Shown: positions 285-31,425, numbered from the stretch's first letter. The stretch is DNA of 32,000 bases from Vitreoscilla massiliensis (GCF_001457815.1 NZ_LN898221.1:463788-495787), one strand, 5' to 3'. Translations and numbers: made by a program. Notes: generated from the sequence alone by a model not told the origin.

Positions 285-803
285 TCAAGCCTCGTTTGTG
301 CTCACATTGCCATTGCTACTCAATATTGGCAAATCATAACGCTTCGGGTCCGGTATTGATGGCACGCCATTTCCAAACGATGGCCATACATACGCAACCA
401 CCCGATCAGTAGAAAACGGCGCAATCGATACTTTATTGCTCTGATTGCCGCCCAATACCATCAAATTGCCCCGAGCATCTTTACCTACAACAAATCCCAC
501 ATGGCCACCACCAGAACGGTTAAAAATCACCAAGCAGCCATATGCTGGCTTACTCAATTTCGTGCCAGCATTTGCCCAGTCCTTTGCGCGATACCAATGT
601 TTTACAACAAAGCGGCCTGTAAACTGCAGACAGTAGCCCACAAACGTGCCACACCAAGGCGTTTCATCCTCTGCCCACCATGCCCCTAGTTTTTTTAGCC
701 AGCCCAGAATGGTTGTGTTGTGCCCCTTGGTACCAACGATTTCTGATAAACCTATGTGTTTACGTGCTTCGGCAATCCATGCCAGTTCAGTTTGCTTACT
801 CAT
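285..803 (-). CDS. Phage-type peptidoglycan hydrolase (endolysin) of the CHAP / NlpC-P60 type, resembling the TIGR02594 family
   Basis: 172-aa ORF. A catalytic-Cys context (ETPWCGTFVGYC) and a His context (GGGHVGFVVG) are typical of CHAP amidase/peptidases. The start overlaps the upstream holin stop (ATGA at 800-803). Confidence 0.8.
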   Translation of the reverse strand: MSKQTELAWIAEARKHIGLSEIVGTKGHNTTILGWLKKLGAWWAEDETPWCGTFVGYCLQFTGRFVVKHWYRAKDWANAGTKLSKPAYGCLVIFNRSGGGHVGFVVGKDARGNLMVLGGNQSNKVSIAPFSTDRVVAYVWPSFGNGVPSIPDPKRYDLPILSSNGNVSTNEA

Positions 804-1147
804 TGCATGCCCCCAGTTTTGGTTTTAATAGCAGCTTCCCAAATGGAAGCAAAAATGTTGATTGCGTTACCGCCCAAATAGCCTGATAACGAGATGGCGA
901 TACATGCGCCAGCGGTTAACTCATAACTATTTGTGAAGTGCCACACACCGAAAAACGCCAACACTCCGGCGAAAGCCGCAATAAACAAATCACAAAAAAT
1001 CTTCAACAAAAAATACTGTAATGGCATACGCACCCCCTCTCGGCGATAGCGCATAATTGCATCAGCCAAGCCGCCAAATACAGACAGCGCAATGACCATT
1101 GCCCATGTTGCTATTAACTGCTTGTATTCTTGTAAGCCATCAAACAT
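800..1147 (-). CDS. Phage holin with three predicted transmembrane segments
   Basis: 115-aa ORF with three hydrophobic stretches (LIATWAMVIALSVFGGLADAI, LKIFCDLFIAAFAGVLAFFGVW, AGACIAISLSGYLGGNAINIFA). It sits immediately upstream of the endolysin and is overlap-coupled to it. The call rests on position and topology. Confidence 0.6.
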   Translation of the reverse strand: MFDGLQEYKQLIATWAMVIALSVFGGLADAIMRYRREGVRMPLQYFLLKIFCDLFIAAFAGVLAFFGVWHFTNSYELTAGACIAISLSGYLGGNAINIFASIWEAAIKTKTGGMQ

Positions 1148-1222
1148 AAAGCCCCCTTAAAAAAACAAATCCCCACGATTTCTCATGAGGACAGTTTCTT
1201 TTAAAACAAAGGAGTTACTAAG

Positions 1223-1957
1223 TTATTTATTCATAATACCAGTCACCCAAATATTGCCACTTGGAACTTTAACCAATGAGTCGACCGGCAAATAACAAAG
1301 CCCGATGTACACTGAGAATTCGTCTGTATTTTGTATTTCTGCATACTTAGAATCTGTTGATGATAAAGGTGTTATTGCAAAGAAGAAGCTAAATTCAGAT
1401 GTTAAAGCTTTAACAATCGAGCCGTTATTATCACGCATGACAATATCTGTGTATGTGGCGCCAATTGCATCAATTGAAAAACGCCCGCTTGATTTATATG
1501 GCGTGATTCTCGGAGCTACATACTTACTTGACGTAGGAATTTCTGGATGAGTGATTCGCAACACGCCAGTTGTTGTGTTGAAACTGAAACTGTATTGAGC
1601 AGAAAGCGCAGATTGAGATGCAATAAGTTTGCTGTTTGTTGCATCATAGGTAATTAATGGGCAATCACTTCCTGCCGAGCCTTTGCTTTCATAGCATCGC
1701 ATCTGCGTAAGCGTTCCTTGAGTATTATTTGTTGAAGTTATATGCATAGGCTTCGCAAATACACCTGCAGTGGTGGGCACTTGTGCAGTAACAATTGAGC
1801 GAGCATTTGCGTCAGATTTAACGGGATGATTAAAGCGCATCAAACCCGTTGCTGGATTACTGTTTGCTGCATCATATGTTACTAATCCCTCGAATAACTT
1901 TGAAACTGATGTAATTGTGCCATCACCTTTAAACGTAAAAGTTAATGGTGCAAACAT
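1223..1957 (-). CDS. Hypothetical protein, possibly a phage structural or tail-fibre-like C-terminal part. Its 5' side abuts an IS end.
   Basis: 244-aa ORF rich in Ser/Thr/Asn and predicted beta-strand, with no motif I recognise. It lies upstream of the holin-endolysin pair. The reading frame stays open upstream of the ATG into the IS1016-like end at 1967, so it may be 5'-truncated. Confidence 0.35.
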   Translation of the reverse strand: MFAPLTFTFKGDGTITSVSKLFEGLVTYDAANSNPATGLMRFNHPVKSDANARSIVTAQVPTTAGVFAKPMHITSTNNTQGTLTQMRCYESKGSAGSDCPLITYDATNSKLIASQSALSAQYSFSFNTTTGVLRITHPEIPTSSKYVAPRITPYKSSGRFSIDAIGATYTDIVMRDNNGSIVKALTSEFSFFFAITPLSSTDSKYAEIQNTDEFSVYIGLCYLPVDSLVKVPSGNIWVTGIMNK

Positions 1958-1966
1958 ATTAATAAT

Positions 1967-2686: not shown

Positions 2687-2753
2687 TGTAGTGGTCTAAT
2701 ACAACAGGACACATTTCTGAGAGAATATTAATTCCCTTTGAAAGGTCAAAATC

Positions 2754-3032: not shown

Positions 3033-3091
3033 GATACAATTTTATTCAACAAAATCAACGCCATTACCCAATTAAGACTCTGTGCAAAGTA

Positions 3092-3892: not shown

Positions 3893-3942
3893 CCACTACA
3901 CCCAAAATCATTTATTTAATTACTGCACATTTACAGATATTG

Positions 3943-4239: not shown

Positions 4240-4501
4240 GGTACATCTCCCAAGTGAGGTTGTTCTGTTTGTGTGAGGTCATATTGCACTTCGACACTTA
4301 GGGGAAACTTAGAAAGAAATAAAGTTAAGTAATCCATGAAAAACGAAGATTTACCTGAAATTTAAGGTTAAATTAATTCTAATAAAACTCTAAAAATCAC
4401 CAGTACTTGAAATTGGAATTAAAATAAAGCCATGGGGTAATCCCCCTTTAAGTAAGTGCAGCATTAAGTAGAATTTTCTCGTAACCTATACGCAGGAGAT
4501 T

Positions 4502-4771: not shown

Positions 4772-5601
4772 AGCCATCTTTGCGCAAGAAGATGGCGTAT
4801 GAGGCGGTCCAACATAAGGCTGTCAGCATACGTTTTGCCTGTGCCACATTCCAAATCAGCGAAACTTGCTACCGTTACCAACACCAATTATCAGATGGCA
4901 ATGCCTTAATCATTCATTGGTTATTGTTGCTAACACAAGAACACCGCGATTGGGGATTCGGTTTGTGCTTTGCCTACATCCGTAACGTTCAAGGTTTGCG
5001 CTTCAATCACAAACGGGTGTATCGGATTTACTGTGAATTGGCTTTAAACCTGAGAATCAAGCCCAAACGCCGTATTAAGCGGCCTGTACCGGATGTATTG
5101 AAACAGCCCACTCACATCAATGACATTTGGTCTTTGGATTTCATGCATGATCAAATGAGCGATGGTCAAAGCTATCGTTTGTTGAACATTATTGATGATT
5201 ACAGACGTGAAGGTTTGGCAATGGAGGTAGGCTTATCACTGCCAGCCAGTCGGGTGATACGCACGCTGAATCAGCTGTTGGAATACCGCACCAGACCCAA
5301 AGCCATACGTTGTGATAATGGCCCAGAATTTACCAGTCATGAATTTCAATCTTGGGCCATACAAAAAGGCATTCGAATTGAATACATCCAACCAGGCAAG
5401 CCACAGCAAAACGCTTCTATTGAGCGCTATAACCGCACCGTCAGGTATGGATTGTTAAATCAGTATTTGTTTAAGAGTTTGGAAGACATTCAGGATTGTG
5501 CCACCCGTTGGTTATGGTTTTACAATCATAAAAGACCTCATCAGGCCAATGGCTGTAGGCCACCGCTGATGGATTTTGATTCTACTGAAACCTGCCATTA
5601 A
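4765..5601 (+). CDS. IS3-family transposase OrfB (DDE integrase core)
   Basis: 278-aa ORF with WSLDFMHD, NIIDDYRREGL, RCDNGPEFTS, PQQNASIERYNRTVR and FYNHKRPHQA. It is reached by -1 frameshifting at A AAA AAG (4759-4765). Confidence 0.8.
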   Translation: MVKPSLRKKMAYEAVQHKAVSIRFACATFQISETCYRYQHQLSDGNALIIHWLLLLTQEHRDWGFGLCFAYIRNVQGLRFNHKRVYRIYCELALNLRIKPKRRIKRPVPDVLKQPTHINDIWSLDFMHDQMSDGQSYRLLNIIDDYRREGLAMEVGLSLPASRVIRTLNQLLEYRTRPKAIRCDNGPEFTSHEFQSWAIQKGIRIEYIQPGKPQQNASIERYNRTVRYGLLNQYLFKSLEDIQDCATRWLWFYNHKRPHQANGCRPPLMDFDSTETCH

Positions 5602-5706
5602 ATATGGGAGGATTACTATGGGAACTTATACAAATCAGCAGTGGCACAACGGACGAAACACACCGACACCTTCAAGTATGACTTTTATCATTGCTGCAAA
5701 CTCAGC

Positions 5707-10803: not shown

Positions 10804-12457
10804 ACCACGCCTGTACATCATTGCGGTCATCCACGGTGCTGGGTTGGTGGCCAAACGGGAAACCAATGCGGGCTTGCGCCTGCCATAGTCTGCTGTTTTG
10901 CCAATCCAAGCCTAAACCAACACTGTTAATGCGGGCTTTGTTGCTGCCGCTAAAGCCTTTCCATTTGTCGGCCACAAATTGTGCTTGGGCGGTGTCCACA
11001 TACACTTTGCCCAACAATTGGTTTTTATTGGAATTGAGTAAATTTTGACGCAATTCGGTAATAGCATAATAGCCACTGCTGCCACCCAAGACGCTGGATT
11101 TGTAGCCACTGACGGTATATGGCCCACCTGCACTGAAGCCATCAGCTTCTAAATTGTCAGGGCTGTATTGACCTTGTAAGCTCGCATACAACTGCGTACC
11201 GTGTTTGCCCAAGTTCTGCAAACGGGCGATGTTGGCACTGAACAGTTTAAACGTGCCTTGATTGCGGTTGGTCAATTCGTCCAATGCTCGGGCTTTATCA
11301 TTGGTGAAGTCGACACGTCCCACTGCAGCAGCGATGCCAAACTGATTCAAACCGCCCCCACCCACATCATCAAAGCGAAAGGCATCGAGACGGATGCGGC
11401 CTGTATCGACATTGCGATGGCGGTAAGTCTTGGCCAAACCCACATCGTCTTTGATGCGTTTGTGGTCATAGGAAGTGGTGGCCACCACTTCGGTTTGATT
11501 GTTCAACACCAAGGGATGGCTTAACCATACGGTGGCTTGATCGGCACTGCCTTCTGCATCCAATACTTTCAACGCCTTACCCAGTTCATATTCCAAACGT
11601 GAGTAGCTGACACCAGCTTTGGTACCGGCACCATTCAAGGTCAACTCATACGCCAATTTACCGTAGTTGAAGCGTTTACCAGCACTGGTGCCTTCAAAGC
11701 TCAGTTGGTCCCCTAAACCCAATAGATTATTGGCCATCACTCCGGCATTGAGACGCACTTCGCCAGTGTACTCATTGCCATAATTGTCTAAACCCACATA
11801 ACCGCTGAGGGTTTTGGTGGGGATGACATCGATGTTCACATTGCTGCTGCCGGTGGTACTGCCAGCGCTGATGCTGCTGCGGGTGGTGACGCCATTCAAA
11901 CGGTTGAGCAATTTGATCTGCCGTTCCAAATCTTGGCGTTTGATTACTTTGCCGTTTTGCAATGGCGCAACAGTGGCCTGTAACAAACTGTCTTTGGTGC
12001 GGGTTTGGTTATTGAGGATGATTTGGTCGTATTTGGCTTCCAGAATCCGTATCACCACCACACCGGTGTTGAGGTTTTGTGGAGGCAAATAGGCGCGGTG
12101 GTAAGGATAGCCTTGCTGTTGGTAATAATGGCTGACCTTATCGGCCAATTGTTGTAATTGGCCAATATTGAGGGTTTTGCCCTCGGCATCGGCCACCACA
12201 ACATGTACAGCTTCGCTACTGAGGCTGCCACTGCCTTCGATGTGTATGCGCTCTACCCGCACCGTCTGTTGTCCCTCCAGCGCTTGGGCGATGGGGCTGC
12301 TGTCTTCCCAAGTTGCGGCCTGTTGCGGCTGTGTCGGCAAACGCTGTTCTTGTTGCTGTTGTAACAATTGGCTGGCATTGGGCACCATATCTGCCAGTGC
12401 TGGCAATGCCCACAATGCCAATACGGCCATACTGAGTTGGTTTAACTTGGCCTTCAT
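10781..12457 (-). CDS. tpsB: Two-partner-secretion outer-membrane transporter TpsB (ShlB/FhaC/HecB family)
   Basis: 558-aa ORF. It has a signal peptide (MKAKLNQLSMAVLALWALPALA), a POTRA-like region (VRVERIHIEGSG...LNIGQLQQLADKVSHYYQQQGYPYHRAYLPPQNL..GVVVIRILEAKYDQI), a beta-barrel and a C-terminal aromatic residue (KRF). The start overlaps the tpsA stop (TAATG). Confidence 0.9.
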   Translation of the reverse strand: MKAKLNQLSMAVLALWALPALADMVPNASQLLQQQQEQRLPTQPQQAATWEDSSPIAQALEGQQTVRVERIHIEGSGSLSSEAVHVVVADAEGKTLNIGQLQQLADKVSHYYQQQGYPYHRAYLPPQNLNTGVVVIRILEAKYDQIILNNQTRTKDSLLQATVAPLQNGKVIKRQDLERQIKLLNRLNGVTTRSSISAGSTTGSSNVNIDVIPTKTLSGYVGLDNYGNEYTGEVRLNAGVMANNLLGLGDQLSFEGTSAGKRFNYGKLAYELTLNGAGTKAGVSYSRLEYELGKALKVLDAEGSADQATVWLSHPLVLNNQTEVVATTSYDHKRIKDDVGLAKTYRHRNVDTGRIRLDAFRFDDVGGGGLNQFGIAAAVGRVDFTNDKARALDELTNRNQGTFKLFSANIARLQNLGKHGTQLYASLQGQYSPDNLEADGFSAGGPYTVSGYKSSVLGGSSGYYAITELRQNLLNSNKNQLLGKVYVDTAQAQFVADKWKGFSGSNKARINSVGLGLDWQNSRLWQAQARIGFPFGHQPSTVDDRNDVQAWLNVSKRF

Positions 12458-18400: not shown

Positions 18401-21400
18401 CCAAGTGTGGCGACATTGCTGCTGTAATTGTTGCCCACCAAGCCGCCGACCCGATTCATGCCGCTAACAACAGAAGTGCTTTCCGTATGGGCCATGCTGA
18501 TGTTGCCATCTTGGTTGTAACCGATTAAGCCACCGACTTGATTGCGGCCTGTAACCGCTCCTACGGCGTAGGCATTGCTGATGCCAGCGTTTTGATTGCG
18601 GCCTATGAGGCCGCCGATGTTGTCGCCTGTTCTACCGCCTTGGACTTCGCCTAAGGCATAGCTGTTGCTGACAGTGTGGCCGCCGTTGCTGTAATTGGCG
18701 CCAATTAAGCCACCAACCTCGCCCGTGCCTGTGCCTGTGCCTGTGACCACAGAAGTGTTCGCTGTACTGGCATTGCTGATGTTGGCATTTTCATTCAGGC
18801 CGAGGAGGCCACCGACTTGATTGCGGCCTGTAACGGCTCCTGCGGCGTAGACATTGCTGATGCTGGCGTTTTGATTGTGGCCGATGAAGCCGCCGATATT
18901 GTCACCCGAGCTGCCGCCTTTGACTTCGCCTAAGGCGTAGCTGTTGCTGACCGTGTGACCACCGCCGCTGTAATTGTAACCGATTAAGCCACCGACTTGA
19001 TTGCGGCCTGTAACGGCTCCAGTAGCATAGACATTGCTGATGCTGGCGTTTTGATTGCGACCGATGAGGCCGCCGATGTTGTCACCCGAGCTGCCGCCTT
19101 TCACTTCGCCTAAGGCGTAGCTGTTGCTGACCGTGTGACCACCGCTGCTGTAATTATTACCGATTAAGCCGCCCACAGCACCTGTGCCTGTGACCACCGA
19201 TGTGTTTGCTGTGCTCGCATTGCTGATATTGGCGTTTTCATTCAGGCCGATTAAGCCACCGACATTACTCTTGCCTGTCACCGTTCCACTGGCCGAAACT
19301 TGGCTAACGCTGCCACCTTGGTTGTAAGCAATCAAACCACCCATAGTGGATGTACCAAAAGCCGCACTGACCGACCCAGATGCAGAAGCATTGCTGATTG
19401 TGCCACTGTTGCGTCCCACTAAACCGCCAAAATAATCCTTACCCAGTAAAGCACCAGACCCCGCACTGGTATTGCTGCTGGCGCTAGAAGCCGTAATGCT
19501 GCCTTGGTTGTCGCCAACCAAGCCGCCCCCTATAGCCATCGCGTTTGAGTCAAATATAGCCAGTCTGACTTCATAATCCCCACTGGCGCGGCTGCTTGCA
19601 ATTTGTCCACGGTTGACCCCAACCAAGCCGCCGACCAACGCTGTCTTAGAAGCCGTCGCATTCGTCCGCGTGATGCCTGTCGCCACACTGTTGGCGATGC
19701 TGCCCAAATTCTCACCGACCAAACCACCGAGTCTGATTTCATTGCTGGCCTCACTGGTGGTCACCAAGCCTTCAGCGCGGCTATTGGCAATCATGCTGTG
19801 ATTAATGCCGACCAAGCCACCCGCAATGGCGTTGGCAGTATTTGCACCGGTAACACCCCACAATGCGCCACGAGCGGTGGCTTGCTTAATCAAACCCGTG
19901 CTGCTGCCATTGCCCATGTTTTCACCCACCAAGCCACCGGCAATGCTGTGCGCACGCACTTCCGTATCAGCCTTGGTTTCGGCATTGCTGATGTTGCCAT
20001 TTTCATTCAACCCGACCAAACCACCGACTTGATAGCGGCCTGTAACATTGCCTGCGGCGTAGACATTGCTCAGATTGCCTGTCTTGTTGTAACCAATCAG
20101 GCCACCGACTTGGTCGCCTTTACCTGTGACATTACCAGTGGCATATGCGTTGCTGATGCTCCCTCCGATATAGCCAGCTCCCCCATTGCTGCCAATCAGA
20201 CCACCCACATGGTTGTTGCCACTCACATCGCCTGTAGCATGACTGCCATTGACTTGAGCTTGCCCATTCAGTCCTATCAAGCCTCCCGCAGACGTATCAT
20301 TTGCTTGTGCGGTGACCTTTCCTGAGGCATGGCTGTTGCTGATACTCCCATAATAACTAAAGCCCACCAAGCCACCTGCATAAGCAATATCATTAGTAGC
20401 ATTGGACGTCACCGCACCTGTAGCATGGCTATTATTGATGCTGCCTTGGTCATTAGTTCCCACTAAACCACCAGCAATAGCAAGAAGATTGCTAGAGTTT
20501 GCCGTCACCGCACCTGTAGCATAGCTGTTGCTGATGCTACCTCTATTCACGCCTACCAATCCACCGGCAAGAGCAGAGTGAGAAGTGCCGATAGCGCTCA
20601 CAACTCCAGAGGCATGGCTGTTACTGATACTGCCCTTGTTCTCTCCTACCAAGCCGCCTGCATTAGCAAAATAAGAAAAAGAATCAGCACTTACATCCCC
20701 AGAGGCATGGCTGTTGCTGATACTGCCATAATAATTAAAGCCCACAAAGCCGCCTACACGAACTTCACCAGAGGCAGCTTTGGCCGTCACCGCACCTGTA
20801 GCATAGCTATTACTGATATTGGCTTCATTTCGCCCTACCAAGCCGCCTGCATTGGCATTGAATGCAGCAGAATTGGCCGTTACTGTTCCAGTGGCATGGC
20901 TGTTGCTGATGTTACCGCTGCTGTGCCCTACTAAACCGCCGACATAAATACTATCTCGAATACTGCCATTGTAGGTATGGTTAATCACCATATCGCCAGT
21001 GGCTTGGCTGTCGCTGATGTTGCCGCTGCTGTATCCTACTAAGCCACCTAAATAGACACTTTTATTGGTCGCCATGTTTACAACAGCCTGTAGCTGTCCA
21101 GACGCATCTGAAATCGTCCCAGTGTTATACCCAACCACCCCGCCCACATAAGCCTCAACATTATTAACAGAAAGCATAGATTGCCAACTGACATTAGCAT
21201 GGGCGGCGCTGATACTCCCCTTGTAATTACTACCGACCACACCTCCTGATCTGATAAATCCATTATTACCTAATAAATACAAATTGCCACTGGTGTTGAC
21301 ATTGCTGATGCTGCCACCATCATTAACGCCGGCCACAATACCGATATCATTTCTTGCGCCTATACTGGCATCGTACACATTCACATTGCGAATGCTGCCG

Positions 21401-23145
21401 TTTTTCACATAGCGGAACAAACCCACCTCATTGTACAGAGGCAGATTGATATACAACTTGTTAATGTCATGGCCCAAACCATCAAAGCGGCCTGTAAACA
21501 CCGAACCACTTAAGGTATTGCCTAAAGGATCAAACCCACTTCCGCCAAAAGCAGCTTGCCATGTTGTTGTGCTGCTGGCATCAATGTCAGTACCCAATAC
21601 ATAGTTGCCATCCAGTTTGCCATTGATGCCTTGCAAATCCGTGGCTGTGAGCGAATTCTGCGCGCCCAAAGCGGTAATCACAGTGTAACTCACCGTGTTG
21701 CCGTTGCTGCCTTGTTTGGTGCTGAAGTTTTGACCGGCCTGTAAATTGACTTTGGCACCATTATTCAGATAATAATCTGAGGTATTGCCTGCCTCGACAT
21801 TGGCCAGCCCGTATTCCAAGTTCAGGCCGGCATTGGCACCGGAGGCGGTAATGGATTTGTTGATGTTGATGTTGTTTTGTGCCGACAAGGTCAAGTCGTT
21901 GTCACTGCTCCAAGTAATGGTGTCATTAACATGGATGTCACCTGCGCCTGTTGTGGTGCCAGTGATGCTTTCAATTTTGAAATTGGTGGTGGCCAAATTG
22001 GTGGCCACAGTCGCACCCGTTATGTCGCCACCACTGGCAGCGATGGTGAAATCGGTCGGGTCTATCAACCACAAACCGGTTTTGCCGCCTTGCTCGGCAC
22101 TGGTATTGACCCGTGTCGCATCACCAATTTTCACCGCGGCGGCACTGGTTTCAATAAAGCCGCCATCTTGCCCATTCATGCCTTGTACCGATAAGCGGCC
22201 TGTAACGTTGGTAATGCCTGTGCCCATATCTGCCAATAAGATGATTTCACCTTTGGCGTTTTGAGTCAGGCGGTTGGCTTCAATGATGCCACTGTGGTTC
22301 ACCACGGCACGGCTCAGCGCATCTTTGCCTTTGGCAGTCAAATACACCGCGCCATTGTCGGCAATAATCGCGCCTTGGTTGTCGACCAAACCTTGCACCA
22401 CGCCTTGGTCTACTTGGTATTGGGTGAGCGAGCCGTCTTGTAAAGCCAGTGTGACCTGATTGGCGGCAGTCAAGTGGGTGATGCCATTGGGGGTTTTAAT
22501 CGTACCGGTATTGACAATATTCGGGGCAATCAAAGCCACAGTGCCGCCGTTGGCGATGATGCTGCCGTGATTCTCCACTCTGCCTGTGCCATTGGCATCG
22601 CCTGAGAGTTTAAAGCGGCCTGTAAGCGCATCTTGCTCAGACAGTTTCAAGGTAGATGCGACCAAACCGCCGACATTCACTTGTGCAGTTTTGGAGAAAA
22701 TCACCCCATTGGGATTGAGCAAGAATACCTGCCCATTGGCATTGAGCCTGCCCATGATTTGGCTGGCATTGTTGTCCAACACTTGGTTGACGGCGATGGC
22801 AGATGAATTCGGTTGATTGAAGTTAACCGTGGCATCTTTGCCGATGTTAAAGCTGTTCCACTGGGTATTAAGATGTTGGCTGTGTTGGTTCACATTGAGC
22901 ACATTGCCTTGCTGCTGAATCTGCCCTTGCCCTTGGGTGATGTTGCCGCCTTGCGGCAAGGCATTCGGGTCTATCGCCGCCAACACTACAATTGGCAACA
23001 AGGCCAGATTGAACACGGCAAAACGCTGTAATAAACCACTTAAACCCACACTGCTGCCACCACCGCCATGTGCACTGGCCAATTCCGACACCACTTGCAC
23101 ACAGGCCAAGCTGGCATTCCAAACGGTTTTGTAAATCTTATTCAT
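12457..23145 (-). CDS. tpsA: Giant TpsA exoprotein (filamentous-haemagglutinin-like adhesin), 3562 aa counted from MNKIYK
   Basis: Domains, N- to C-terminus:
- ESPR-type extended signal (MNKIYKTVWNASLACVQVVSELA).
- TPS/haemagglutination-activity domain (NSFNIGKDATVNFNQP...AVNQVLDNNASQIMGRLNANGQVFLLNPNGVIFS).
- GGFIETSAAAV motif.
- Long run of ~20-aa GLUG-type repeats (GGLVG.N.G.I.NS.A.G.V).
- SSFWDTQSS...GWDIDD...WRIY segment.
- MBG/YDG-type repeats (NKANLTLQAATD.RTYDGTTNS...GGNYNV).
- Pro-rich tail.
The ORF track starts 20 codons earlier (23205). ATG at 23145 has better AGGGG spacing and gives the canonical ESPR start. Confidence 0.9.
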   Translation of the reverse strand: MNKIYKTVWNASLACVQVVSELASAHGGGGSSVGLSGLLQRFAVFNLALLPIVVLAAIDPNALPQGGNITQGQGQIQQQGNVLNVNQHSQHLNTQWNSFNIGKDATVNFNQPNSSAIAVNQVLDNNASQIMGRLNANGQVFLLNPNGVIFSKTAQVNVGGLVASTLKLSEQDALTGRFKLSGDANGTGRVENHGSIIANGGTVALIAPNIVNTGTIKTPNGITHLTAANQVTLALQDGSLTQYQVDQGVVQGLVDNQGAIIADNGAVYLTAKGKDALSRAVVNHSGIIEANRLTQNAKGEIILLADMGTGITNVTGRLSVQGMNGQDGGFIETSAAAVKIGDATRVNTSAEQGGKTGLWLIDPTDFTIAASGGDITGATVATNLATTNFKIESITGTTTGAGDIHVNDTITWSSDNDLTLSAQNNININKSITASGANAGLNLEYGLANVEAGNTSDYYLNNGAKVNLQAGQNFSTKQGSNGNTVSYTVITALGAQNSLTATDLQGINGKLDGNYVLGTDIDASSTTTWQAAFGGSGFDPLGNTLSGSVFTGRFDGLGHDINKLYINLPLYNEVGLFRYVKNGSIRNVNVYDASIGARNDIGIVAGVNDGGSISNVNTSGNLYLLGNNGFIRSGGVVGSNYKGSISAAHANVSWQSMLSVNNVEAYVGGVVGYNTGTISDASGQLQAVVNMATNKSVYLGGLVGYSSGNISDSQATGDMVINHTYNGSIRDSIYVGGLVGHSSGNISNSHATGTVTANSAAFNANAGGLVGRNEANISNSYATGAVTAKAASGEVRVGGFVGFNYYGSISNSHASGDVSADSFSYFANAGGLVGENKGSISNSHASGVVSAIGTSHSALAGGLVGVNRGSISNSYATGAVTANSSNLLAIAGGLVGTNDQGSINNSHATGAVTSNATNDIAYAGGLVGFSYYGSISNSHASGKVTAQANDTSAGGLIGLNGQAQVNGSHATGDVSGNNHVGGLIGSNGGAGYIGGSISNAYATGNVTGKGDQVGGLIGYNKTGNLSNVYAAGNVTGRYQVGGLVGLNENGNISNAETKADTEVRAHSIAGGLVGENMGNGSSTGLIKQATARGALWGVTGANTANAIAGGLVGINHSMIANSRAEGLVTTSEASNEIRLGGLVGENLGSIANSVATGITRTNATASKTALVGGLVGVNRGQIASSRASGDYEVRLAIFDSNAMAIGGGLVGDNQGSITASSASSNTSAGSGALLGKDYFGGLVGRNSGTISNASASGSVSAAFGTSTMGGLIAYNQGGSVSQVSASGTVTGKSNVGGLIGLNENANISNASTANTSVVTGTGAVGGLIGNNYSSGGHTVSNSYALGEVKGGSSGDNIGGLIGRNQNASISNVYATGAVTGRNQVGGLIGYNYSGGGHTVSNSYALGEVKGGSSGDNIGGFIGHNQNASISNVYAAGAVTGRNQVGGLLGLNENANISNASTANTSVVTGTGTGTGEVGGLIGANYSNGGHTVSNSYALGEVQGGRTGDNIGGLIGRNQNAGISNAYAVGAVTGRNQVGGLIGYNQDGNISMAHTESTSVVSGMNRVGGLVGNNYSSNVATLGLIEGVYAQGRVEAKSANGEAIAGGLVGLNWGNISNSHATGTVTANSSSANAYAGGLVGFNDNSTISNSHATGAVTANASAAYAYAGGLVGKSSGNISNSHASGNVTANAEGGVAYAGGLVAYNTQGDMTDTQATGTVTAHSEQQYSYAAGLVAYNTNGNILNATSSGDVSASSNLGWTEAAGLVAYHENGRIHNAHVRGSVTARANTGEAYAAGLVGFNRSVIEQAQADGDVRAESNLSNAYAGGAVAYNSQALSGVHATGNVSAHANINTSQAYVGGLVGWHESGQIDDSHATGIVVAQAAKTFAGGLIGLNRNGQVTNSFASGDVSGNNHVGGLIGANGDAQSNGGNVSNAYATGDVSGTDDQVGGLIGYNKIGNLSNVYAAGKVTGRNQVGGLVGWNENSQVSNAHTTADVSGANEVGGLIGRNAGSPATALVTVKNSYAQGDVEAKNTDASVHAGGLVGYNAYGSIDNSYAHGNVKVALTVTPAAAGMKNIDVSAGGLLGRNDAAGSFISNSHATGDVSIDVVGNGNPTMVYALAGGLVGLHGQAKMGSISNSHATGAVSARSNLGRVLAGGLAGASYGDVYDSYAKGAVHVVTSGLAEKVFAGGLLGAGYAPNAGMLGAPNFIHNSHASGDVTVEATVNSASAGGLVGIASSYLSAIANSHATGNVSMVATAGNANTFAGGLIGQNSQAPVRNSHATGNVTGPNNVGGLIGLNGDEEVTFAQGGYISNSYATGNVTGLDHIGGLIGYNQYSILKNVQATGAVTGRDHVGGLVGSFIGYYGEMYRIDDSFATGKVVGANHVGGLIGSNGTTDPAKGIGGFISNVYATGGVTGTGDKVGGLIGYHQKGSVNIAYASGTVSSNGDAVGGLVGLNENSSISNAYAVGAVTGRNQVGGLVGNSVGSSSIAQTYARGLVTGTSNVGGLIGSTDATTQVASSFWDTQSSAQNSSAGGAGANGVSTAQIMDVNTFINAGWDIDDVGGTGKVWRIYSGQTAPLLRNFLTQKTINAGADNTITYDAQQHSFGATTGVDANVLQQGTGTGTNVNVYDLVYYSHQQGYDLVGDRDSRLTINKAALTVTANNANKVYDATAYAGGNGVSYSGFVGGETASVLGGAVTYSGTSQGAKNAGTYVIDAGGLSSGNYDITYQKGDLTIGKANLTLQAATDTRTYDGTTNSAQQVIVTGLMGNDALTNLSQSFDNRNAGSRDLSVDVGYVVNDGNGGGNYNVVENKASGTINKANLTLQAATDNRTYDGTTNSKGAVTYAGLVAGDSVTGLSQSFDNRNAGSRDLLVDAGYVVNDGNGGGNYNVIENKASGTINKANLTLQAATDSRTYDGTTNSKGAVTYSGLVAGDSVSGLSQSFDSRNAGSRDLSVNAGYVVNDGNGGGNYNVVENKASGTINKANLTLQAATDNRTYDGTTNSAKQVIVTGLMGNDALTNLSQSFDSRNAGSRDLLVNAGYVVNDGNAGGNYNVVVNKASGTINKANLTLQAATDTRTYDGTTNSNVAVTVAGLVAGDSVTGLSQSFDSRNAGSRDLLVDAGYVVNDGNGGGNYNVVENKASGTINKANLVLQAATDSRTYDGTTNSKGAVTYAGLVAGDSVTGLSQSFDSRNAGSRDLSVNAGYVVNDGNGGGNYNVIENKASGTINKANLVLQAASDSRTYDGTTNSKGAVTYSGLVAGDSVTGLSQSFDSRNAGSRDLLVDTGYVVDDGNGGNNYVVVSQNASGQIDKAKLSSIADIAALNRDYNGLLDVALDYSKAHIVGTIFGSDDVTVAQTGTGTMANKNAGSSKLVSISGLSLSGADAGNYELDNSSGQTTVDIDKASIGKVTGLKGIDRQINASTDVGIDVSGAHLSNVVAGDQVFISAAQGSLANNQVGTQQVSITDIDLAGADASNYEWDGAPTTTTVNIAAVPTVPPTVAPTARPQMQAPTGNPYRRAIDFDDEDKLKNPLNGNPVHIEIIGNGVNTNGIQTLSGGLR
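13213..14934 (-). repeat. Seven in-frame tandem copies of a 246-bp (82-aa) MBG/YDG-type unit within tpsA
   Basis: The landmark GCGGCCTGTAA recurs at 13427, 13673, 13919, 14165, 14411, 14657 and 14903, exactly 246 bp apart. The protein units begin INKANL(T/V)LQAA(T/S)D.RTYDGTTNS. More divergent units flank the array on both sides. Confidence 0.9.
15600..21430 (-). repeat. GLUG-type repeat region of tpsA, about 1900 aa of degenerate ~20-aa units
   Basis: GGL(V/I)G.N motifs recur roughly every 18-22 aa. Boundaries were estimated by eye from the translation. Confidence 0.7.
18520..19270 (-). repeat. Near-identical 180-bp (60-aa) super-repeats inside the GLUG region
   Basis: 18841-19020 and 19021-19200 are almost identical, and 18556-18720 is a more divergent copy. 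The protein unit is GHTVSNSYALGEVKGGSSGDNIGGLIGRNQNASISNVYATGAVTGRNQVGGLIGYNYS. Confidence 0.8.
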
Positions 23146-24520: not shown

Positions 24521-24530
24521 TCTTCTAAGA

Positions 24531-24568
24531 TAACTAAGCGGCCTGTAAAGTTACAGGCCGCTTAGTTA
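24531..24568 (+). terminator. Terminator formed by an inverted pair of the GCGGCCTGTAA motif
   Basis: 38-bp perfect palindrome TAACTAAGCGGCCTGTAA|AG|TTACAGGCCGCTTAGTTA, starting 11 nt after the LysE-family gene stop. Confidence 0.7.
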
Positions 24569-24930
24569 TACTTTGCCAAGTGCTGCTGTGCTTATTCCAG
24601 TTGTACATCATGTTTGACGTCACGTCTGCTTAATTTGACGGTTCAATTTAAAGCGGTAACACAATATAGCGGCCTGTAAATCCCCATAAGATTAAATTAA
24701 TTGATGGAAATCCAATTAGCTTAGAAGAATTGCATTTGAAAGGTGGTGATTTGAGCACCATAAGAAAAGGCATAAAAGCCGCTTGTATCAACTCAAGTGG
24801 CTTCAATTTGGCGGCATGACAAATCCCATCCTCGGCAATGGGTTTTCATGCTTGATCATTTCACACGCTTCAATAGGTTTATGGCCCATCTAAAAAAGGA
24901 TTTTGGATAGATTTGCATGAGCTCCATGGA

Positions 24931-24972: not shown

Positions 24973-24974
24973 TG

Positions 24975-26423: not shown

Positions 26424-27180
26424 CTTCTGGCATCACTTTCGATTGAATTTGTATTTGGGTGTTGAACACCTGCACATTGCCATCATCGTCAATCAAACTG
26501 AATTGCAATGGCGTTTTGTTTACAGGCCGCTTATACAAGGGCACGCTGACACTGCTGGAAGGGGCAATGGTCAGTGTGGTTTGCAATTGCGGCTCTTTCG
26601 CCACCATGATTTCTCCAAACGAGGCATAAAACGGGGAAGGATTGTCTATGCGCAAACGTTGCTCGGCTTCATCACAGTGAAAACGCAATTGCCGTGACAG
26701 TTTCGCCGTGTCTAGTTGCCATTTATCAGGTCGGTAAAACAGCTTCATTTGCAATCTGACATTGACTTTCAACACATCGCCAGCTTGCGCTTGGGGGTTA
26801 CTTGGCACCAGCTCATACAAATTGAGCCAATACAAAGACTCGGCCTGTTGATTGTGTTCTTGGCTGAATTTATTGATCAAGCGTATTGGCTTGATTTGTT
26901 GTGGCTCCAAATGCAGTAATGGAGGCAATGTCATCAGTGGCGCTGCTACCGCTTGTTGTGGCACATTGCTGACAACTCCATCATCAACCCAATTTTGGAT
27001 GATGATGGGATAGTCACCGGTATTTTTTAAAAACACCGTGGCCTCACGTTCAGAGTGGTGCACCACATAGCGCGATTGCTGTATGGAAAACTCGGCCGCC
27101 GCTGGAGCTGAGTACAGTGCTGCGGTGCAGCCCAACATCAGGCTGGCACAGGCTGAAAATATTGGCCTAGGCTTCCTCAT
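26416..27180 (-). CDS. Periplasmic fimbrial chaperone, PapD-like
   Basis: 254-aa ORF. It has a signal peptide ending in AAA, then SRYVVHHSEREATVFLKNTGDYPIIIQNWVDD, LPPLLHLEPQQIKPIRL, ESLYWLNLYELVP and VRLQMKLFYRP, which are classic PapD-family motifs. It overlaps the usher 3' end by 14 nt. Confidence 0.85.
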   Translation of the reverse strand: MRKPRPIFSACASLMLGCTAALYSAPAAAEFSIQQSRYVVHHSEREATVFLKNTGDYPIIIQNWVDDGVVSNVPQQAVAAPLMTLPPLLHLEPQQIKPIRLINKFSQEHNQQAESLYWLNLYELVPSNPQAQAGDVLKVNVRLQMKLFYRPDKWQLDTAKLSRQLRFHCDEAEQRLRIDNPSPFYASFGEIMVAKEPQLQTTLTIAPSSSVSVPLYKRPVNKTPLQFSLIDDDGNVQVFNTQIQIQSKVMPEDE

Positions 27181-29677: not shown

Positions 29678-29688
29678 GCAGTGGTTAT
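29658..29688. other. Perfect 11-bp-stem hairpin at the junction between the fimbrial cluster and the oxidoreductase operon
   Basis: ATAACCACTGC (29658-29668), a 9-nt loop, then GCAGTGGTTAT (29678-29688). Confidence 0.6.
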
Positions 29689-29689
29689 A

Positions 29690-30952
29690 GACAATGTCAT
29701 CGCCTACGATGCCGCGCCACAAGGCCAAGAAGGACCGTGGGTGACGTTCGCGCGCATGGAGACCTTGCGTTCGCCCAAAACCTTGCACGGCCCGGCTTTG
29801 GGCTTGCCGCTATTAACATTCCGAGCTTGGTATACCGCCCAATGGGGCGATGAAGCTTGGGCGCAATTGGACAAGATTCCCAAAGACCAATGGATGGATT
29901 ATTTGGTGTGGTTCCGCCAAGTGCTGAATTTGCCGATACAAAACGGCGTGCGCATGACTCGCATTTCTGCAGCGGGTGAATTGATTGCCATCGATGTCGA
30001 AGGTGCGGTCAACACCACCGTCTACACGCGCAAATTGGTGTTGGCTACAGGCCGCTCAGGTTTGGGCGGCACCAGTGTGCCAGACTTCTTACAACACGTA
30101 GACCGCCAATACTGGGCACACTCCGCCGATGACATTGATTTTGCGGCCTTAAAAGGCAAAAACGTCGCCGTCATCGGTGCCGGCGCTTCGGCCATGGACA
30201 ATGCTGCCACCGCCTTGGAAGCCGGTGCAGCATCGTTAGACATGCTCATCCGCCGTCCCGAGATGCCACGCATCAATAAAATGACCGGCATAGGCAGCCA
30301 AGGTGTGGTGCAAGGCATGCACCTTTTGCCTGACGAATGGAAATGGAAAATCTTTGACTATGTCGCCGCGGCACAAACGCCACCGCCTCATGCGTCTACC
30401 TTGCGCGTATCGCACCATGAAAATGCCCATTTTTACTTGAATTGCGGCATCAAAGCGGTAACAGAACAAGCCGGACAATTGCTCATCTCCACCTCCCAAA
30501 GGCAAAAAGCCTACGATTACCTCATCGCTGCCACTGGCTTTAAAAACGATTTCAGTGGCCGCGCCGAATTTGCCAACATCGCTCCCCACATCCGCAGCTG
30601 GGCCGATGCGCGCTACCAAACCGCTATGGGCAGTGCGCGTACCCACATGTTGGAAGCGCCTGACTTGGGCCCTGCGTTTGAATTTCAAGAGCGTGTGGCC
30701 GGTGCTTGCCCAATGTTGCAACACATTCATTGCTTTAACGACGCCGCCATGCTCAGTCACGGCAAGGTATCTGGCGACATTCCTGCGGTCAGCGCCGGTG
30801 CTGAGCGCTTGGTGCGCGGCATCACCGCGGCCTTATTTCAAGAAGACATCCAACAACACTATGCCAGCTTGGAAGCCTTTGCCCATCCAGAACTCTTGGG
30901 CGACGAGTGGACTGACTCATCGCCGCTGATTAAACACGAGGTATTGCTGTGA
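29690..30952 (+). pseudogene. FAD/NAD(P)-dependent oxidoreductase (flavin monooxygenase-like), 5'-truncated
   Basis: The second dinucleotide-binding motif is present (KNVAVIGAGASAMDNA), as is the conserved FARMETLRSPK...LVLATGRSG region. No N-terminal GxGxxG FAD-binding motif is left. Similarity starts abruptly at the junction hairpin. The only start in the track is a GTG inside that hairpin. Confidence 0.6.
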
Positions 30953-31425
30953 AAGACACCATAGACGTATGCGCAGGCATTACAGAAGCCAGCGCCTTAT
31001 ACCAAACCCGCCGTTTTCGACCCGAATTTGTCGACGGCGCGGTGCAATGCGAAGCATCGGTATTGCGGCCTGTAAACGATTTGGGCTTAAGTGCCGAGCT
31101 GCGTTTGGCCATTGCCTTGCGCATCGCCAAACACAATGGCGTGGCCAGCTTAATCGCCGAATACAAACAGCGTTTTGCCGAAGTGGCAGCAACACCAGCC
31201 TTACAAGCCTTGGCACATGGCCAAGAAATGGGGGCGGAATGGGAAGCATTGGCGCGCCACATCGACATGGTGACGCAAGAGCCCAGCCTCGCCAATGCCG
31301 AGCACATCGCCTTATTGCGTCAAGCAGGCTACAGCGACAGCCAAATCGTGGCCTTGTCGGAATTGATTGCATTTGTGAATTTTCAAACCCGCGTCGTCAG
31401 CGGTTTGCAATTGTTGGGGGCTTAA
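30949..31425 (+). CDS. CMD (carboxymuconolactone decarboxylase/AhpD-like) domain protein, resembling the Avi_7170 family
   Basis: 158-aa ORF whose GTG start overlaps the upstream stop (GTGA). The all-helical AhpD-like sequence includes ...LSAELRLAIALRIAKHN...HIALLRQAGYSDSQIVALSELIAFVNFQTRVV. The family assignment is from memory of the motif pattern. Confidence 0.6.
   Translation: MKDTIDVCAGITEASALYQTRRFRPEFVDGAVQCEASVLRPVNDLGLSAELRLAIALRIAKHNGVASLIAEYKQRFAEVAATPALQALAHGQEMGAEWEALARHIDMVTQEPSLANAEHIALLRQAGYSDSQIVALSELIAFVNFQTRVVSGLQLLGA

What the first reader, a model, noticed from the sequence alone, without database searches (positions are those of the whole stretch)
612..31076. Hyper-abundant 11-mer GCGGCCTGTAA: candidate DNA uptake sequence with a non-canonical sequence
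I count 21 perfect copies by eye.

Plus-strand starts: 612, 13427, 13673, 13919, 14165, 14411, 14657, 14903, 17230, 18544, 18823, 19003, 20035, 21487, 22195, 22615, 24538, 24669, 31066. Minus-strand copies: 24551-24561 and 26520-26530. At least 6 one-mismatch variants start at 5079, 11396, 15721, 21734, 28113 and 30045.

A random 11-mer is expected about 2x32000/4^11 = 0.015 times. Fifteen copies lie in tpsA, and 7 of those belong to one tandem repeat, so they are not independent.

Six copies lie in unrelated places: the phage endolysin gene, the fimbrial chaperone gene, the CMD gene, an intergenic site, and an inverted pair forming a terminator. The motif is read in at least three different ways: TGR (ACA GGC CGC, antisense copies), LQAAT, and KRPV/LRPV (sense copies). 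It is therefore not driven by a protein motif.

The two bases 5' of the motif are nearly always A/T.

Three properties match Neisseriaceae DUS and Pasteurellaceae USS: density of about 0.7 per kb, tolerance inside genes, and terminator-forming inverted pairs. The sequence shares the ..CTG.. core and 7/10 positions with GCCGTCTGAA. It is not the canonical Neisseria DUS or the Haemophilus USS, and it does not match any DUS variant I can recall.
Basis: partly seen in the sequence, partly recalled or inferred. Interest (0 to 1): 0.85.

Follow-up and report, generated by a model that had tools for sequence, protein, structure and literature searches.

The report
Vitreoscilla DNA uptake sequence, already described

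Summary
There are 21 perfect GCGGCCTGTAA copies and 24 copies of the 10-mer GCGGCCTGTA, against 0 expected.

The window is Vitreoscilla massiliensis (Neisseriaceae). Six window proteins are exact matches to UOO89061-89075, and the DNA is 99.995% identical to CP091511.1.

bioRxiv 10.1101/2025.10.24.684340 (Oct 2025) names AGCGGCCTGTAA as a new DUS dialect of this same genome. It reports about 3,070-3,105 copies, or 0.82 per kb. The window has 0.75 per kb, so it sits at the genome average.

My own tests agree with a DNA-level uptake signal:
- Copies lie in unrelated genes and are read in three ways.
- 12 of 14 Thr-Gly-Arg tripeptides are encoded by ACAGGCCGC, where codon usage predicts about 5%.
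- CTG sits at +6 to +8 and A at +10, as in all known dialects.
- One inverted pair forms a 19-bp hairpin 10 nt after the LysE stop codon.
- The low-GC prophage/IS block is depleted.
- At least 120 unrelated metagenome contigs carry 184 further copies.

About 12 of the 21 copies are inflated by repeats inside one giant adhesin gene. I could not retrieve a ComP receptor gene, and uptake has never been tested experimentally.

Verdict: a real DUS dialect, already known.

The parts
612..622 (+). DUS copy (aaGCGGCCTGTAAa) inside the prophage CHAP/TIGR02594 endolysin gene (285-803, -). Antisense to the gene; read as Thr-Gly-Arg.
5079..5088 (+). Perfect 10-mer GCGGCCTGTA (C at +11) in the IS3-type transposase ORF 4765-5601 (+). 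Sense; read as KRPV.
11396..11405 (+). Perfect 10-mer (T at +11) in the TpsB/ShlB-family gene 10781-12457 (-). Antisense; read as TGR.
13427..14913 (+). Seven DUS copies at 13427, 13673, 13919, 14165, 14411, 14657 and 14903, one per 246-bp tandem unit (YDG-domain repeats) of the giant TpsA-like gene (12457-23205, -). Antisense; read as LQAA. The 11-mer is the longest invariant run among units that are 85% identical overall.
17230..17240 (+). DUS copy in a GLUG repeat of the TpsA-like gene. Antisense; read as V-TGR-N. Shares the flank ACCGACTTGATT with 18544, 18823 and 19003.
18544..18554 (+). DUS copy in a GLUG repeat (same family).
18823..18833 (+). DUS copy in a GLUG repeat (same family; part of a 180-bp duplication).
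19003..19013 (+). DUS copy in a GLUG repeat (same family; part of a 180-bp duplication).
20035..20045 (+). DUS copy in a GLUG repeat (same family; flank ...GATA).
21487..21497 (+). DUS copy in a unique context of the TpsA-like gene. Antisense; read as TGR.
22195..22205 (+). DUS copy in a unique context of the TpsA-like gene. Antisense; read as TGR.
22615..22625 (+). DUS copy in a unique context of the TpsA-like gene. Antisense; read as TGR.
24530..24569 (.). Inverted DUS pair: + copy at 24538-24548, - copy at 24551-24561. It lies inside a perfect 19-bp inverted repeat, ATAACTAAGCGGCCTGTAA-AG-TTACAGGCCGCTTAGTTAT, which begins 10 nt after the LysE stop codon (24518-24520) between convergent genes. 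RNA hairpin of -31.9 kcal/mol (z -5.95) on the + strand; the longer segment folded on the - strand gave -38.5 kcal/mol (z -6.9). No clear U-tract.
24669..24679 (+). Single intergenic DUS copy (taGCGGCCTGTAAa) between LysE and the fimbrial subunit gene.
26520..26530 (-). DUS copy in the PapD-type fimbrial chaperone gene (26416-27180, -). Sense; read as KRPV.
30046..30055 (-). Perfect 10-mer (G at +11) in the flavin/pyridine-nucleotide oxidoreductase ORF (29681-30952, +). Antisense; read as TGR.
31065..31075 (+). DUS copy in the CMD-domain gene (30949-31425, +). Sense; read as LRPV.
11973..11983 (+). Degenerate copy GTGGCCTGTAA (mismatch at +2) in TpsB. Other degenerate copies: 15721 (GCGGCCTGTCA, +10), 21734 and 28113 (CCGGCCTGTAA, +1).

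Best explanation
GCGGCCTGTA is the species-specific DNA uptake sequence (DUS) dialect of Vitreoscilla massiliensis.

The mechanism below is inferred by analogy with Neisseria, Kingella and Eikenella:
- A ComP-type minor pilin on type IV pili binds double-stranded DNA that carries the motif.
- Pilus retraction brings that DNA through the PilQ secretin.
- One strand enters the cytoplasm and recombines with the chromosome through RecA.

Because motif-bearing fragments are taken up and recombined preferentially, the motif accumulates all over the resident genome. It reaches about 0.8 copies per kb. It sits inside genes wherever a reading frame tolerates it (TGR, LQAA, K/LRPV). Between genes it occurs as inverted pairs that double as transcript-end hairpins.

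It stays rare in recently acquired DNA.

In this window the count is further raised because an ancestral copy was multiplied along with two repeat families of a giant adhesin gene.

Shown here: identity of the organism, over-representation, DNA-level rather than protein-level constraint, the CTG-core layout, the hairpin pair, and dispersal in unrelated DNA.

Inferred: ComP binding, uptake enhancement and terminator activity.
For: 1. Abundance. 21 perfect 11-mers and 24 10-mers against 0 expected. It is the top 8- to 12-mer of the window.

2. Organism. Six window proteins are exact matches to V. massiliensis proteins UOO89061-89075. The DNA is 99.995% identical to CP091511.1. The species belongs to Neisseriaceae.

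3. Literature. The preprint 10.1101/2025.10.24.684340 reports the following for V. massiliensis SN6:
- AGCGGCCTGTAA as a new DUS dialect
- CGGCCTGTAA 3,105 times, observed/expected 65
- 3,069 dominant-dialect copies
- 1,575 copies in predicted terminators
- 914 copies in inverted repeats
- ComP encoded in the genome

4. Motif layout. CTG at +6 to +8 and A at +10 are the positions conserved in all dialects, and the CTG core is required for transformation (Frye 2013, PMC3630211). The motif is 7/10 identical to GCCGTCTGAA and 8/10 to king3DUS GCAGCCTGCA.

5. DNA-level constraint.
- 12 of 14 TGR tripeptides are encoded by ACAGGCCGC, against 4.8% expected from codon usage.
- 8 of 13 QAA tripeptides use CAGGCCGC.
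- Both RPV tripeptides use the rare CGG codon.
- The motif is read in three different ways in five unrelated genes.
- The 11-mer is the longest invariant run in 85%-identical tandem units.

6. Hairpin. The inverted pair forms a 19-bp hairpin 10 nt after the LysE stop codon.

7. Depletion in mobile DNA. There are 2 copies in the low-GC prophage/IS/TA block (1-10.7 kb) and 22 in 10.8-32 kb.

8. Dispersal elsewhere.
- At least 120 metagenome contigs (429 kb) were found through one extended inverted pair each.
- They hold 184 further copies (0.43 per kb, about 0.8 copies expected in total).
- They hold almost no other dialect.
- The flank consensus is AA-...-AA.
- Forward-reverse pairs outnumber reverse-forward pairs 159 to 6.
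- One such contig carries a type IV minor-pilin operon.

9. Sister species. The V. stercoraria argS locus holds 7 G-type and 10 T-type copies in 21.7 kb.

10. Variant spectrum. One-mismatch variants show that +3, +5 to +8 and +10 are the most constrained positions.
Against: No experiment exists. Nobody has shown that V. massiliensis is transformable or that the motif enhances uptake.

I could not retrieve a V. massiliensis ComP or other competence genes with the tools available. ComP presence therefore rests on one sentence of a non-peer-reviewed preprint.

I did not recompute the genome-wide count.

Twelve of the 21 local copies owe their number to repeat amplification.

The hairpin has no clear U-tract, and the simple terminator scan did not pick it up.

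The metagenome contigs could not be placed taxonomically.
Confidence: 0.87

Rival explanations
1. Fossil DUS. The motif was accumulated by an uptake system in the past. V. massiliensis may no longer be competent, or its ComP may no longer be specific, so the copies are decaying relics that survive mainly where they serve as hairpins or codons.
For: Transformation has not been demonstrated in this species. I could not find ComP with my tools. Degenerate copies exist.
Against: Perfect copies outnumber one-mismatch copies 21 to 7 in the window. In 461 kb of pooled DNA the ratio is 390 perfect to about 130 across all 13 positions. The genome holds about 3,100 perfect copies and is said to encode ComP. 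A decaying motif would show a much larger halo of mismatched copies.
Confidence: 0.07
2. A local repeat or protein-motif artefact. The motif is frequent here only because it encodes conserved peptides (TGR in GLUG repeats, LQAA in YDG repeats) of one giant repetitive adhesin gene.
For: 15 of 21 copies are in that gene. Twelve belong to two repeat families.
Against: Nine perfect 11-mers lie outside those repeat families: three in unique contexts of the same gene and six outside it. They sit in the endolysin, PapD and CMD genes and in intergenic DNA, and they are read in different ways.

Codon choice is extreme: 12 of 14 TGR use one of 96 possible codon combinations.

The same motif is dispersed in at least 120 unrelated metagenome contigs and in V. 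stercoraria. It occurs about 3,100 times in the genome.
Confidence: 0.01
3. A REP-like or terminator hairpin element, or a small mobile repeat, unrelated to DNA uptake.
For: An inverted pair forms a strong hairpin after a gene. Forward-reverse pairs are very common in the metagenome contigs. The preprint places about half of the copies in predicted terminators.
Against: Most copies in the window are single and lie inside genes. Conservation stops at about 14 nt (-2 to +12), with no shared flanks or terminal repeats. A hairpin element does not explain single copies that are read in several ways. The CTG/A layout matches the DUS family.
Confidence: 0.03
4. A strand-polar chromosome motif such as Chi or a FtsK-orienting (KOPS) sequence. 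The hint is that 19 of 21 copies lie on one strand.
For: Strand bias of 19 to 2 in the window.
Against: The bias comes from 15 copies inside one gene. Outside that gene the split is 4 to 2.

V. stercoraria shows 7 + and 11 - copies (counting all GCGNCCTGTA matches) in 21.7 kb.

Inverted pairs are the rule elsewhere.

A density of 0.8 per kb and a 12- to 14-nt length are atypical for Chi or KOPS.
Confidence: 0.02

Closest known systems
The Vitreoscilla massiliensis DUS dialect GCGGCCTGTA / AGCGGCCTGTAA. It is called 'vitDUS' in the Discussion and 'vit3DUS' in the Results and Suppl. Table 1 of bioRxiv 10.1101/2025.10.24.684340.
   Same: Identical sequence, identical species and identical genome. 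The density is the same (0.75 per kb here against 0.82 per kb genome-wide). The dominant reading QAA is seen here in the seven tandem copies. Inverted pairs occur at gene ends.
   Different: Nothing of substance.

This window adds local detail:
- amplification inside adhesin repeats
- the codon-choice test
- depletion in the prophage/IS block
- the extended consensus AA-...-AA
- presence in many metagenome contigs

The dialect is defined by computation only; no uptake experiment exists.
AA-king3DUS (AAGCAGCCTGCA) of Kingella kingae, K. negevensis and K. denitrificans (Frye 2013, PMC3630211; PMC10715097).
   Same: 8 of 10 core positions. The same AA prefix at -2/-1. CTG at +6 to +8 and A at +10. 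Thousands of copies per genome. king3DUS was shown to favour transformation in K. denitrificans.
   Different: G instead of A at +3 and T instead of C at +9. The T at +9 and the G at +3 are unique to the Vitreoscilla dialects. No transformation data exist for Vitreoscilla.
Canonical AT-DUS/AG-DUS (GCCGTCTGAA) of Neisseria with its ComP receptor (PDB 2M3K, 5HZ7).
   Same: 7 of 10 positions. The CTG core, the family and the genomic behaviour are the same: copies inside genes in tolerated frames, and inverted pairs at transcript ends.
   Different: Differs at +3, +5 and +9. Dialects differing at this many positions act as barriers to cross-species transformation in tested species.
The V. stercoraria dialect GCGTCCTGTA.
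   Same: Differs only at +4 (T for G). The flanks are the same (AA-...-AA).
   Different: V. stercoraria uses both variants. In its argS locus there are 10 T-type copies, mostly in intergenic pairs, and 7 G-type copies, mostly inside genes. The V. massiliensis window has 24 G-type and 0 T-type copies.
Pasteurellaceae uptake signal sequences: Hin-USS AAGTGCGGT and Apl-USS ACAAGCGGT.
   Same: The same kind of genomic behaviour. The left half of the Vitreoscilla motif, AAGCGG, equals positions 3-8 of the Apl-USS and contains the USS inner core GCGG.
   Different: No AT-rich downstream segments. It has the DUS CTG core and occurs in a different family. The six-base match could be chance (roughly a few per cent by my estimate).

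Membership tests
Neisseriaceae DNA uptake sequence (DUS) dialects | A 10-mer with CTG at +6 to +8 and A at +10; these positions are conserved in all described dialects, and the CTG core is required for transformation. | tested here: met
   In GCGGCCTGTA, positions +6 to +8 are CTG and +10 is A. The rule is from Frye 2013. One-mismatch copies are rarest at +3, +5 to +8 and +10.
Neisseriaceae DNA uptake sequence (DUS) dialects | The host belongs to Neisseriaceae. | tested here: met
   Exact protein matches to V. massiliensis. DNA identity to CP091511.1. Lineage Neisseriales; Neisseriaceae.
Neisseriaceae DNA uptake sequence (DUS) dialects | By far the most over-represented 10- to 12-mer locally, dispersed in unrelated sequence. 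| tested here: met
   Top k-mer of the window for k = 8 to 12, with 0 expected. Present in five unrelated genes and in intergenic DNA. 184 extra copies in 429 kb of unrelated metagenome contigs.
Neisseriaceae DNA uptake sequence (DUS) dialects | Hundreds to thousands of copies in the whole genome. | not testable with these tools
   The whole genome could not be fetched. The preprint reports 3,069-3,105 copies in the 3.73-Mb genome. The window density of 0.75 per kb agrees with that.
Neisseriaceae DNA uptake sequence (DUS) dialects | Tolerated inside genes in several frames, with DNA-level rather than peptide-level conservation. | tested here: met
   Read as TGR, LQAA and K/LRPV. 12 of 14 TGR are encoded by ACAGGCCGC against 4.8% expected.
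Neisseriaceae DNA uptake sequence (DUS) dialects | Inverted pairs 3' of genes that form stem-loops (terminator association). | tested here: met
   The pair at 24538/24551 lies in a 19-bp stem 10 nt after the LysE stop codon, dG -31.9 kcal/mol, z -5.95. Terminator activity itself was not shown, and there is no U-tract. There are 159 forward-reverse pairs in the metagenome contigs.
Neisseriaceae DNA uptake sequence (DUS) dialects | Under-represented in recently acquired or mobile DNA. | tested here: met
   2 copies in the 10.7-kb low-GC prophage/IS/TA block against 22 in the remaining 21.3 kb, or about 12 after collapsing the repeat families. This is a single locus, so the evidence is weak.
Neisseriaceae DNA uptake sequence (DUS) dialects | A cognate ComP minor pilin (PF16732) and type IV pilus/competence genes in the same genome. 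| tested here: inconclusive
   ComP-profile searches did not bring up a V. massiliensis protein. The tools cannot query one genome. The preprint states that the genome encodes ComP. A metagenome contig bearing this DUS carries a type IV minor-pilin operon, but its PilE-like protein scores below the PF16732 cut-off.
Neisseriaceae DNA uptake sequence (DUS) dialects | The motif enhances DNA binding, uptake and transformation. | not testable with these tools
   This needs a wet-lab assay. None is reported for any Vitreoscilla in the library searched.
Pasteurellaceae uptake signal sequence (USS) | A 9-mer core AAGTGCGGT or ACAAGCGGT followed by AT-rich segments, in a Pasteurellaceae host. | tested here: not met
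   Only AAGCGG is shared. Base composition downstream of +12 is mixed. The host is a member of Neisseriaceae.

The most novel reading that the evidence does not exclude
The Vitreoscilla G-type motif AAGCGGCCTGTAA places the Pasteurellaceae USS inner core next to the Neisseriaceae DUS inner core. The USS core GCGG appears in its Apl-USS context AAGCGG, and the DUS core CTG follows directly. Vitreoscilla would then preserve a bipartite, ancestral-like uptake signal, which would support a common (divergent) origin of DUS and USS and of their minor-pilin receptors. The preprint that defined the dialect does not mention this. My evidence does not exclude it, but the six-base match may be coincidence.
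Probability: 0.06. Interest if true: 0.7.

Novelty: already known. Interest (0 to 1): 0.22.

Why it matters
DUS dialects show which bacteria can exchange chromosomal DNA by natural transformation, and they act as barriers between species.

Recognising this motif marks V. massiliensis, a human-stool isolate, and many uncultured relatives seen in metagenomes as probably competent with a private uptake code.

The motif is also a practical marker. Low DUS density flags foreign DNA, here the prophage/IS block. Its presence flags mis-binned contigs in metagenome-assembled genomes.

For this scan the main value is calibration: a reader without tools correctly rediscovered a real, recently described genome-wide signal from 32 kb of raw sequence.

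Tried and rejected
Most were chance hairpins in unrelated phyla.

2. The hunt for ComP of V. massiliensis failed.
- I confirmed my recalled N. meningitidis ComP sequence against PDB 2M3K.
- I searched with it.
- I built a profile and scanned 1.84 billion representatives.
- I searched again with a 27-sequence alignment.
- I looked up the 20 best representatives.
- These turned out to be Kingella, N. weaveri, Snodgrassella, Crenobacter, Stenoxybacter and unnamed MAGs. None was Vitreoscilla.
- Contigs of two unnamed ComP proteins carry no Vitreoscilla-type DUS.

3. Sampling unlinked V. massiliensis DNA failed.
- IS transposases were not on record or were found only on short contigs.
- The second endolysin copy returned only a short Logan contig.
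- A search with V. stercoraria ArgS did not list the V. massiliensis orthologue.
- I used V. stercoraria loci and metagenome contigs instead.

4. Pfam did not recognise the CMD gene; NCBIfam did.

5. The strand-polar motif, REP/mobile element and protein-motif explanations were considered and rejected (see the rival explanations).

Full report
**Observation**

A search for GCGGCCTGTAA finds 21 perfect copies, 19 on the + strand and 2 on the - strand. None of 100 dinucleotide-preserving shuffles contained a single match. With one mismatch allowed there are 28 matches, against a mean of 0.44 in shuffles.

- The last copy starts at 31065, not 31066.
- The copy at 30045 is on the - strand.
- A further one-mismatch copy at 11973 was missed.

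Three of the 'mismatch' copies differ only at the eleventh base. The 10-mer GCGGCCTGTA therefore occurs 24 times and is the most frequent 10-mer of the window. Related words lead at every k from 8 to 12.

Both bases 5' of the motif are A or T in all 21 copies, and -1 is A in 15 of them.

**Independence of the copies**

The copies are not all independent.
- Seven sit one per unit in a 246-bp tandem array.
- Five more share the left flank ACCGACTTGAT[T/A] and belong to a second repeat family, the GLUG repeats of the same gene.
- After collapsing both families, about 11 independent occurrences remain in 32 kb. That is still hundreds of times the expectation.

**Surroundings**

Positions 1-10.7 kb are a low-GC (37-42%) mosaic. 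It contains:
- a prophage lysis cassette (CHAP/TIGR02594 endolysin and holin)
- an IS1595 fragment
- two IS3-type transposase ORFs
- a Sel1-repeat protein
- an HTH regulator
- PIN/Phd toxin-antitoxin pairs

From 10.8 kb the G+C content is about 50%. The genes there are:
- a ShlB/FhaC-type TpsB
- a 3,582-aa TpsA-like exoprotein with ESPR, GLUG, MBG and YDG repeats
- LysE
- a chaperone-usher fimbrial operon
- a flavin oxidoreductase
- a CMD-domain gene
- the start of an ABC ATPase

The low-GC block holds 2 of the 24 10-mers. The rest holds 22.

**Source of the window**

Six window proteins are exact matches to Vitreoscilla massiliensis proteins UOO89061-UOO89075. Window positions 780-22457 align to CP091511.1:3371133-3392809 at 99.995% identity. 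The species belongs to Neisseriaceae. It was isolated from human stool and has a 3.72-Mb genome with 49.4% G+C.

**What is already published**

A full-text search for the motif retrieves bioRxiv 10.1101/2025.10.24.684340 (October 2025). It scans 177 genomes and reports three new DUS dialects.

For V. massiliensis SN6 it gives the 12-mer AGCGGCCTGTAA. CGGCCTGTAA occurs 3,105 times (observed/expected 65) and AGCGGCCTGT 2,129 times.

Its Supplementary Table 1 lists 3,069 copies of the dominant dialect. Of these, 1,575 are in predicted terminators and 914 are in inverted repeats.

The authors state that the genome encodes ComP.

The genome-wide density of 0.82 per kb equals that of this window (0.75 per kb). 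The 'hyper-abundance' is therefore the normal background of this genome and not a property of the locus.

The preprint is inconsistent in its naming. The Discussion calls the motif 'vitDUS', while the Results and the table call it 'vit3DUS'.

**Tests made here**

1. Layout. CTG lies at +6 to +8 and A at +10. These are the positions conserved in all eight classical dialects, and the CTG core is required for transformation in N. meningitidis (Frye 2013). Identity is 7/10 to GCCGTCTGAA and 8/10 to king3DUS GCAGCCTGCA.

2. DNA rather than peptide.
- The motif is read as TGR 12 times, counting all perfect 10-mers.
- It is read as LQAA 7 times.
- It is read as KRPV or LRPV 3 times.
- Of the 14 Thr-Gly-Arg tripeptides in the window's genes, 12 are encoded by ACAGGCCGC, where codon usage predicts 4.8%.
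- 8 of 13 Gln-Ala-Ala tripeptides use CAGGCCGC.
- Both Arg-Pro-Val tripeptides use the rare CGG codon.
- In the seven tandem units, which are 85% identical on average, the 11-mer is the longest invariant run: 11 columns, with the next longest at 8.
- The repeat copies are not independent events, which weakens these counts somewhat.

3. Inverted pair.
- The copies at 24538 (+) and 24551 (-) lie in a perfect 19-bp inverted repeat at 24530-24569.
- It starts 10 nt after the LysE stop codon, between convergent genes.
- It folds at -31.9 kcal/mol (z -5.95) on the + strand.
- The longer segment folded on the - strand gave -38.5 kcal/mol (z -6.9).
- No U-tract follows, and the simple terminator scan did not list it. 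Terminator function is therefore inferred.

4. Dispersal elsewhere.
- Outside the seeding pairs these contigs hold 184 further G-type 10-mers. That is 0.43 per kb, where about 0.8 copies would be expected in total.
- They hold only 10 T-type copies and 0-3 copies of any classical dialect.
- Only one of these contigs resembles the window, and only at an IS element.
- The unbiased flanks give AA-GCGGCCTGTA-AA: -2 is A in 84%, -1 is A in 70% or T in 25%, +11 is A in 87%, and +12 is A in 57%.
- Pairs are forward-then-reverse 159 times and reverse-then-forward 6 times.
- One-mismatch copies are most frequent at -1, -2, +9, +11 and +4. They are rarest at +3, +5 to +8 and +10.
- One contig (L078) carries a type IV minor-pilin operon with GspH/FimT-like, PilX and PilE-like genes.

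5. Sister species.
- The 21.7-kb argS locus of V. stercoraria holds 10 GCGTCCTGTA and 7 GCGGCCTGTA.
- The T-type copies are mostly in intergenic inverted pairs.
- The G-type copies are mostly inside genes.
- The V. massiliensis window has no T-type copy.

**What could not be shown**

I could not obtain the V. massiliensis ComP or any of its competence genes. ComP-based sequence and profile searches returned Kingella, Neisseria, Snodgrassella, Crenobacter, Stenoxybacter and unnamed MAG proteins, but no Vitreoscilla protein.

I could not fetch unlinked parts of the genome.

ComP presence and the genome-wide count therefore rest on the preprint. No transformation experiment with any Vitreoscilla was found in the library.

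**Interpretation**

The best explanation is that this is the DUS dialect of V. massiliensis. By analogy with Neisseria, Kingella and Eikenella, a ComP-type minor pilin would bind it on incoming double-stranded DNA. Biased uptake followed by recombination would spread it through the resident genome. Inverted pairs would also serve as transcript-end hairpins.

Rival explanations fare poorly:
- A pure repeat or protein-motif artefact is refuted by the copies outside the repeats, by the codon test and by the metagenome data.
- A REP-like or mobile element is unlikely, because conservation ends at about 14 nt and most copies are single and inside genes.
- A strand-polar motif is unlikely, because the 19:2 bias comes from one gene and is absent elsewhere.
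- A fossil DUS in a species that is no longer competent cannot be excluded without experiments. The low ratio of degenerate to perfect copies argues against it.

**Novelty and score**

The motif was described as a DUS dialect for this very genome in 2025, so the finding is already known.

The additions made here are small:
- amplification within adhesin repeats
- the codon-choice test
- the AA-...-AA extension
- abundance in uncultured relatives
- the split use of G-type and T-type copies in V. stercoraria

One speculative point remains open. The left half AAGCGG equals positions 3-8 of the Apl-type USS and contains the USS inner core GCGG. It is directly followed by the DUS core CTG. The preprint does not mention this. 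It could be chance.

Noticed in passing
window 27167-29788 (- strand): The fimbrial usher gene is interrupted by an in-frame stop at 28253-28255. The N-terminal ORF is 28253-29788 and the C-terminal ORF is 27167-28216, both in the same frame. This is a probable pseudogene or a sequencing error.
   Followed up: partly
window 1-10700: A low-GC (37-42%) mosaic: prophage lysis cassette, IS1595 fragment, two IS3-type transposase ORFs, a Sel1-repeat protein, an HTH regulator and PIN/Phd toxin-antitoxin pairs. It holds only 2 DUS 10-mers, which fits recently acquired DNA. A second, 81%-identical holin-endolysin cassette exists elsewhere (L017; UOO89146).
   Followed up: partly
L020 (V. stercoraria CP019644.2:939887-961614): V. 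stercoraria uses two DUS variants side by side. GCGTCCTGTA (10 copies) forms four intergenic inverted pairs. GCGGCCTGTA (7 copies) accounts for 4 of 5 copies inside genes. All pairs combine two copies of the same variant. This may be division of labour or an ongoing dialect shift at +4. The sample is small and was selected through one G-type pair.
   Followed up: partly
L002 (JBATSI010000073.1, 'Ca. Saccharimonas' MAG) and L007 (CALJUC010000218.1, 'uncultured Moraxella' MAG): Each contig carries three copies of AAGCGGCCTGTAA within 3-5.5 kb. This suggests Vitreoscilla-like DNA mis-binned into unrelated MAGs. DUS content could serve as a binning check.
   Followed up: no
L028-L147 (metagenome contigs RRZU01..., RRZT01..., ERZ6503xx, ERZ1023652, Ga0116175): Organisms with the G-type dialect are abundant in a few metagenome assemblies. 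They are not V. massiliensis itself: there is no match to the window except at an IS element. Their taxonomy and habitat were not determined.
   Followed up: partly
extended motif AAGCGGCCTGTAA (all copies): The left half AAGCGG equals positions 3-8 of the Pasteurellaceae Apl-USS (ACAAGCGGT) and contains the USS inner core GCGG. The right half carries the DUS core CTG. The preprint that defined the dialect does not mention this. It may be coincidence.
   Followed up: partly
bioRxiv 10.1101/2025.10.24.684340: The naming is inconsistent. GCGGCCTGTA of V. massiliensis is 'vitDUS' in the Discussion but 'vit3DUS' in the frame analysis and Suppl. Table 1. The panels of Figure 1 are also swapped between the legend and the text.
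   Followed up: yes
window 12457-23205 (- strand): The giant exoprotein next to TpsB has ESPR, GLUG, MBG_2 and YDG repeats, but no TPS (Haemagg_act) domain was reported by Pfam. The label 'tpsA' therefore rests on context rather than on a domain match. All 15 DUS copies in it are antisense to the gene.
   Followed up: no
window 780-22457 vs CP091511.1: One single-base indel in 21.7 kb separates the window from the complete genome. The window probably comes from the other V. massiliensis assembly, the one with a 1,442,721-bp contig.
   Followed up: no
L025-L027 (low-GC Neisseriaceae MAGs): In these MAGs comP (PF16732) lies directly upstream of DUF493-lipB-lipA. In L026 and L027 a second ComP-like pilin gene precedes it; in L025 an upstream ORF also matches my ComP profile. 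The contigs show no enriched DUS dialect.
   Followed up: no
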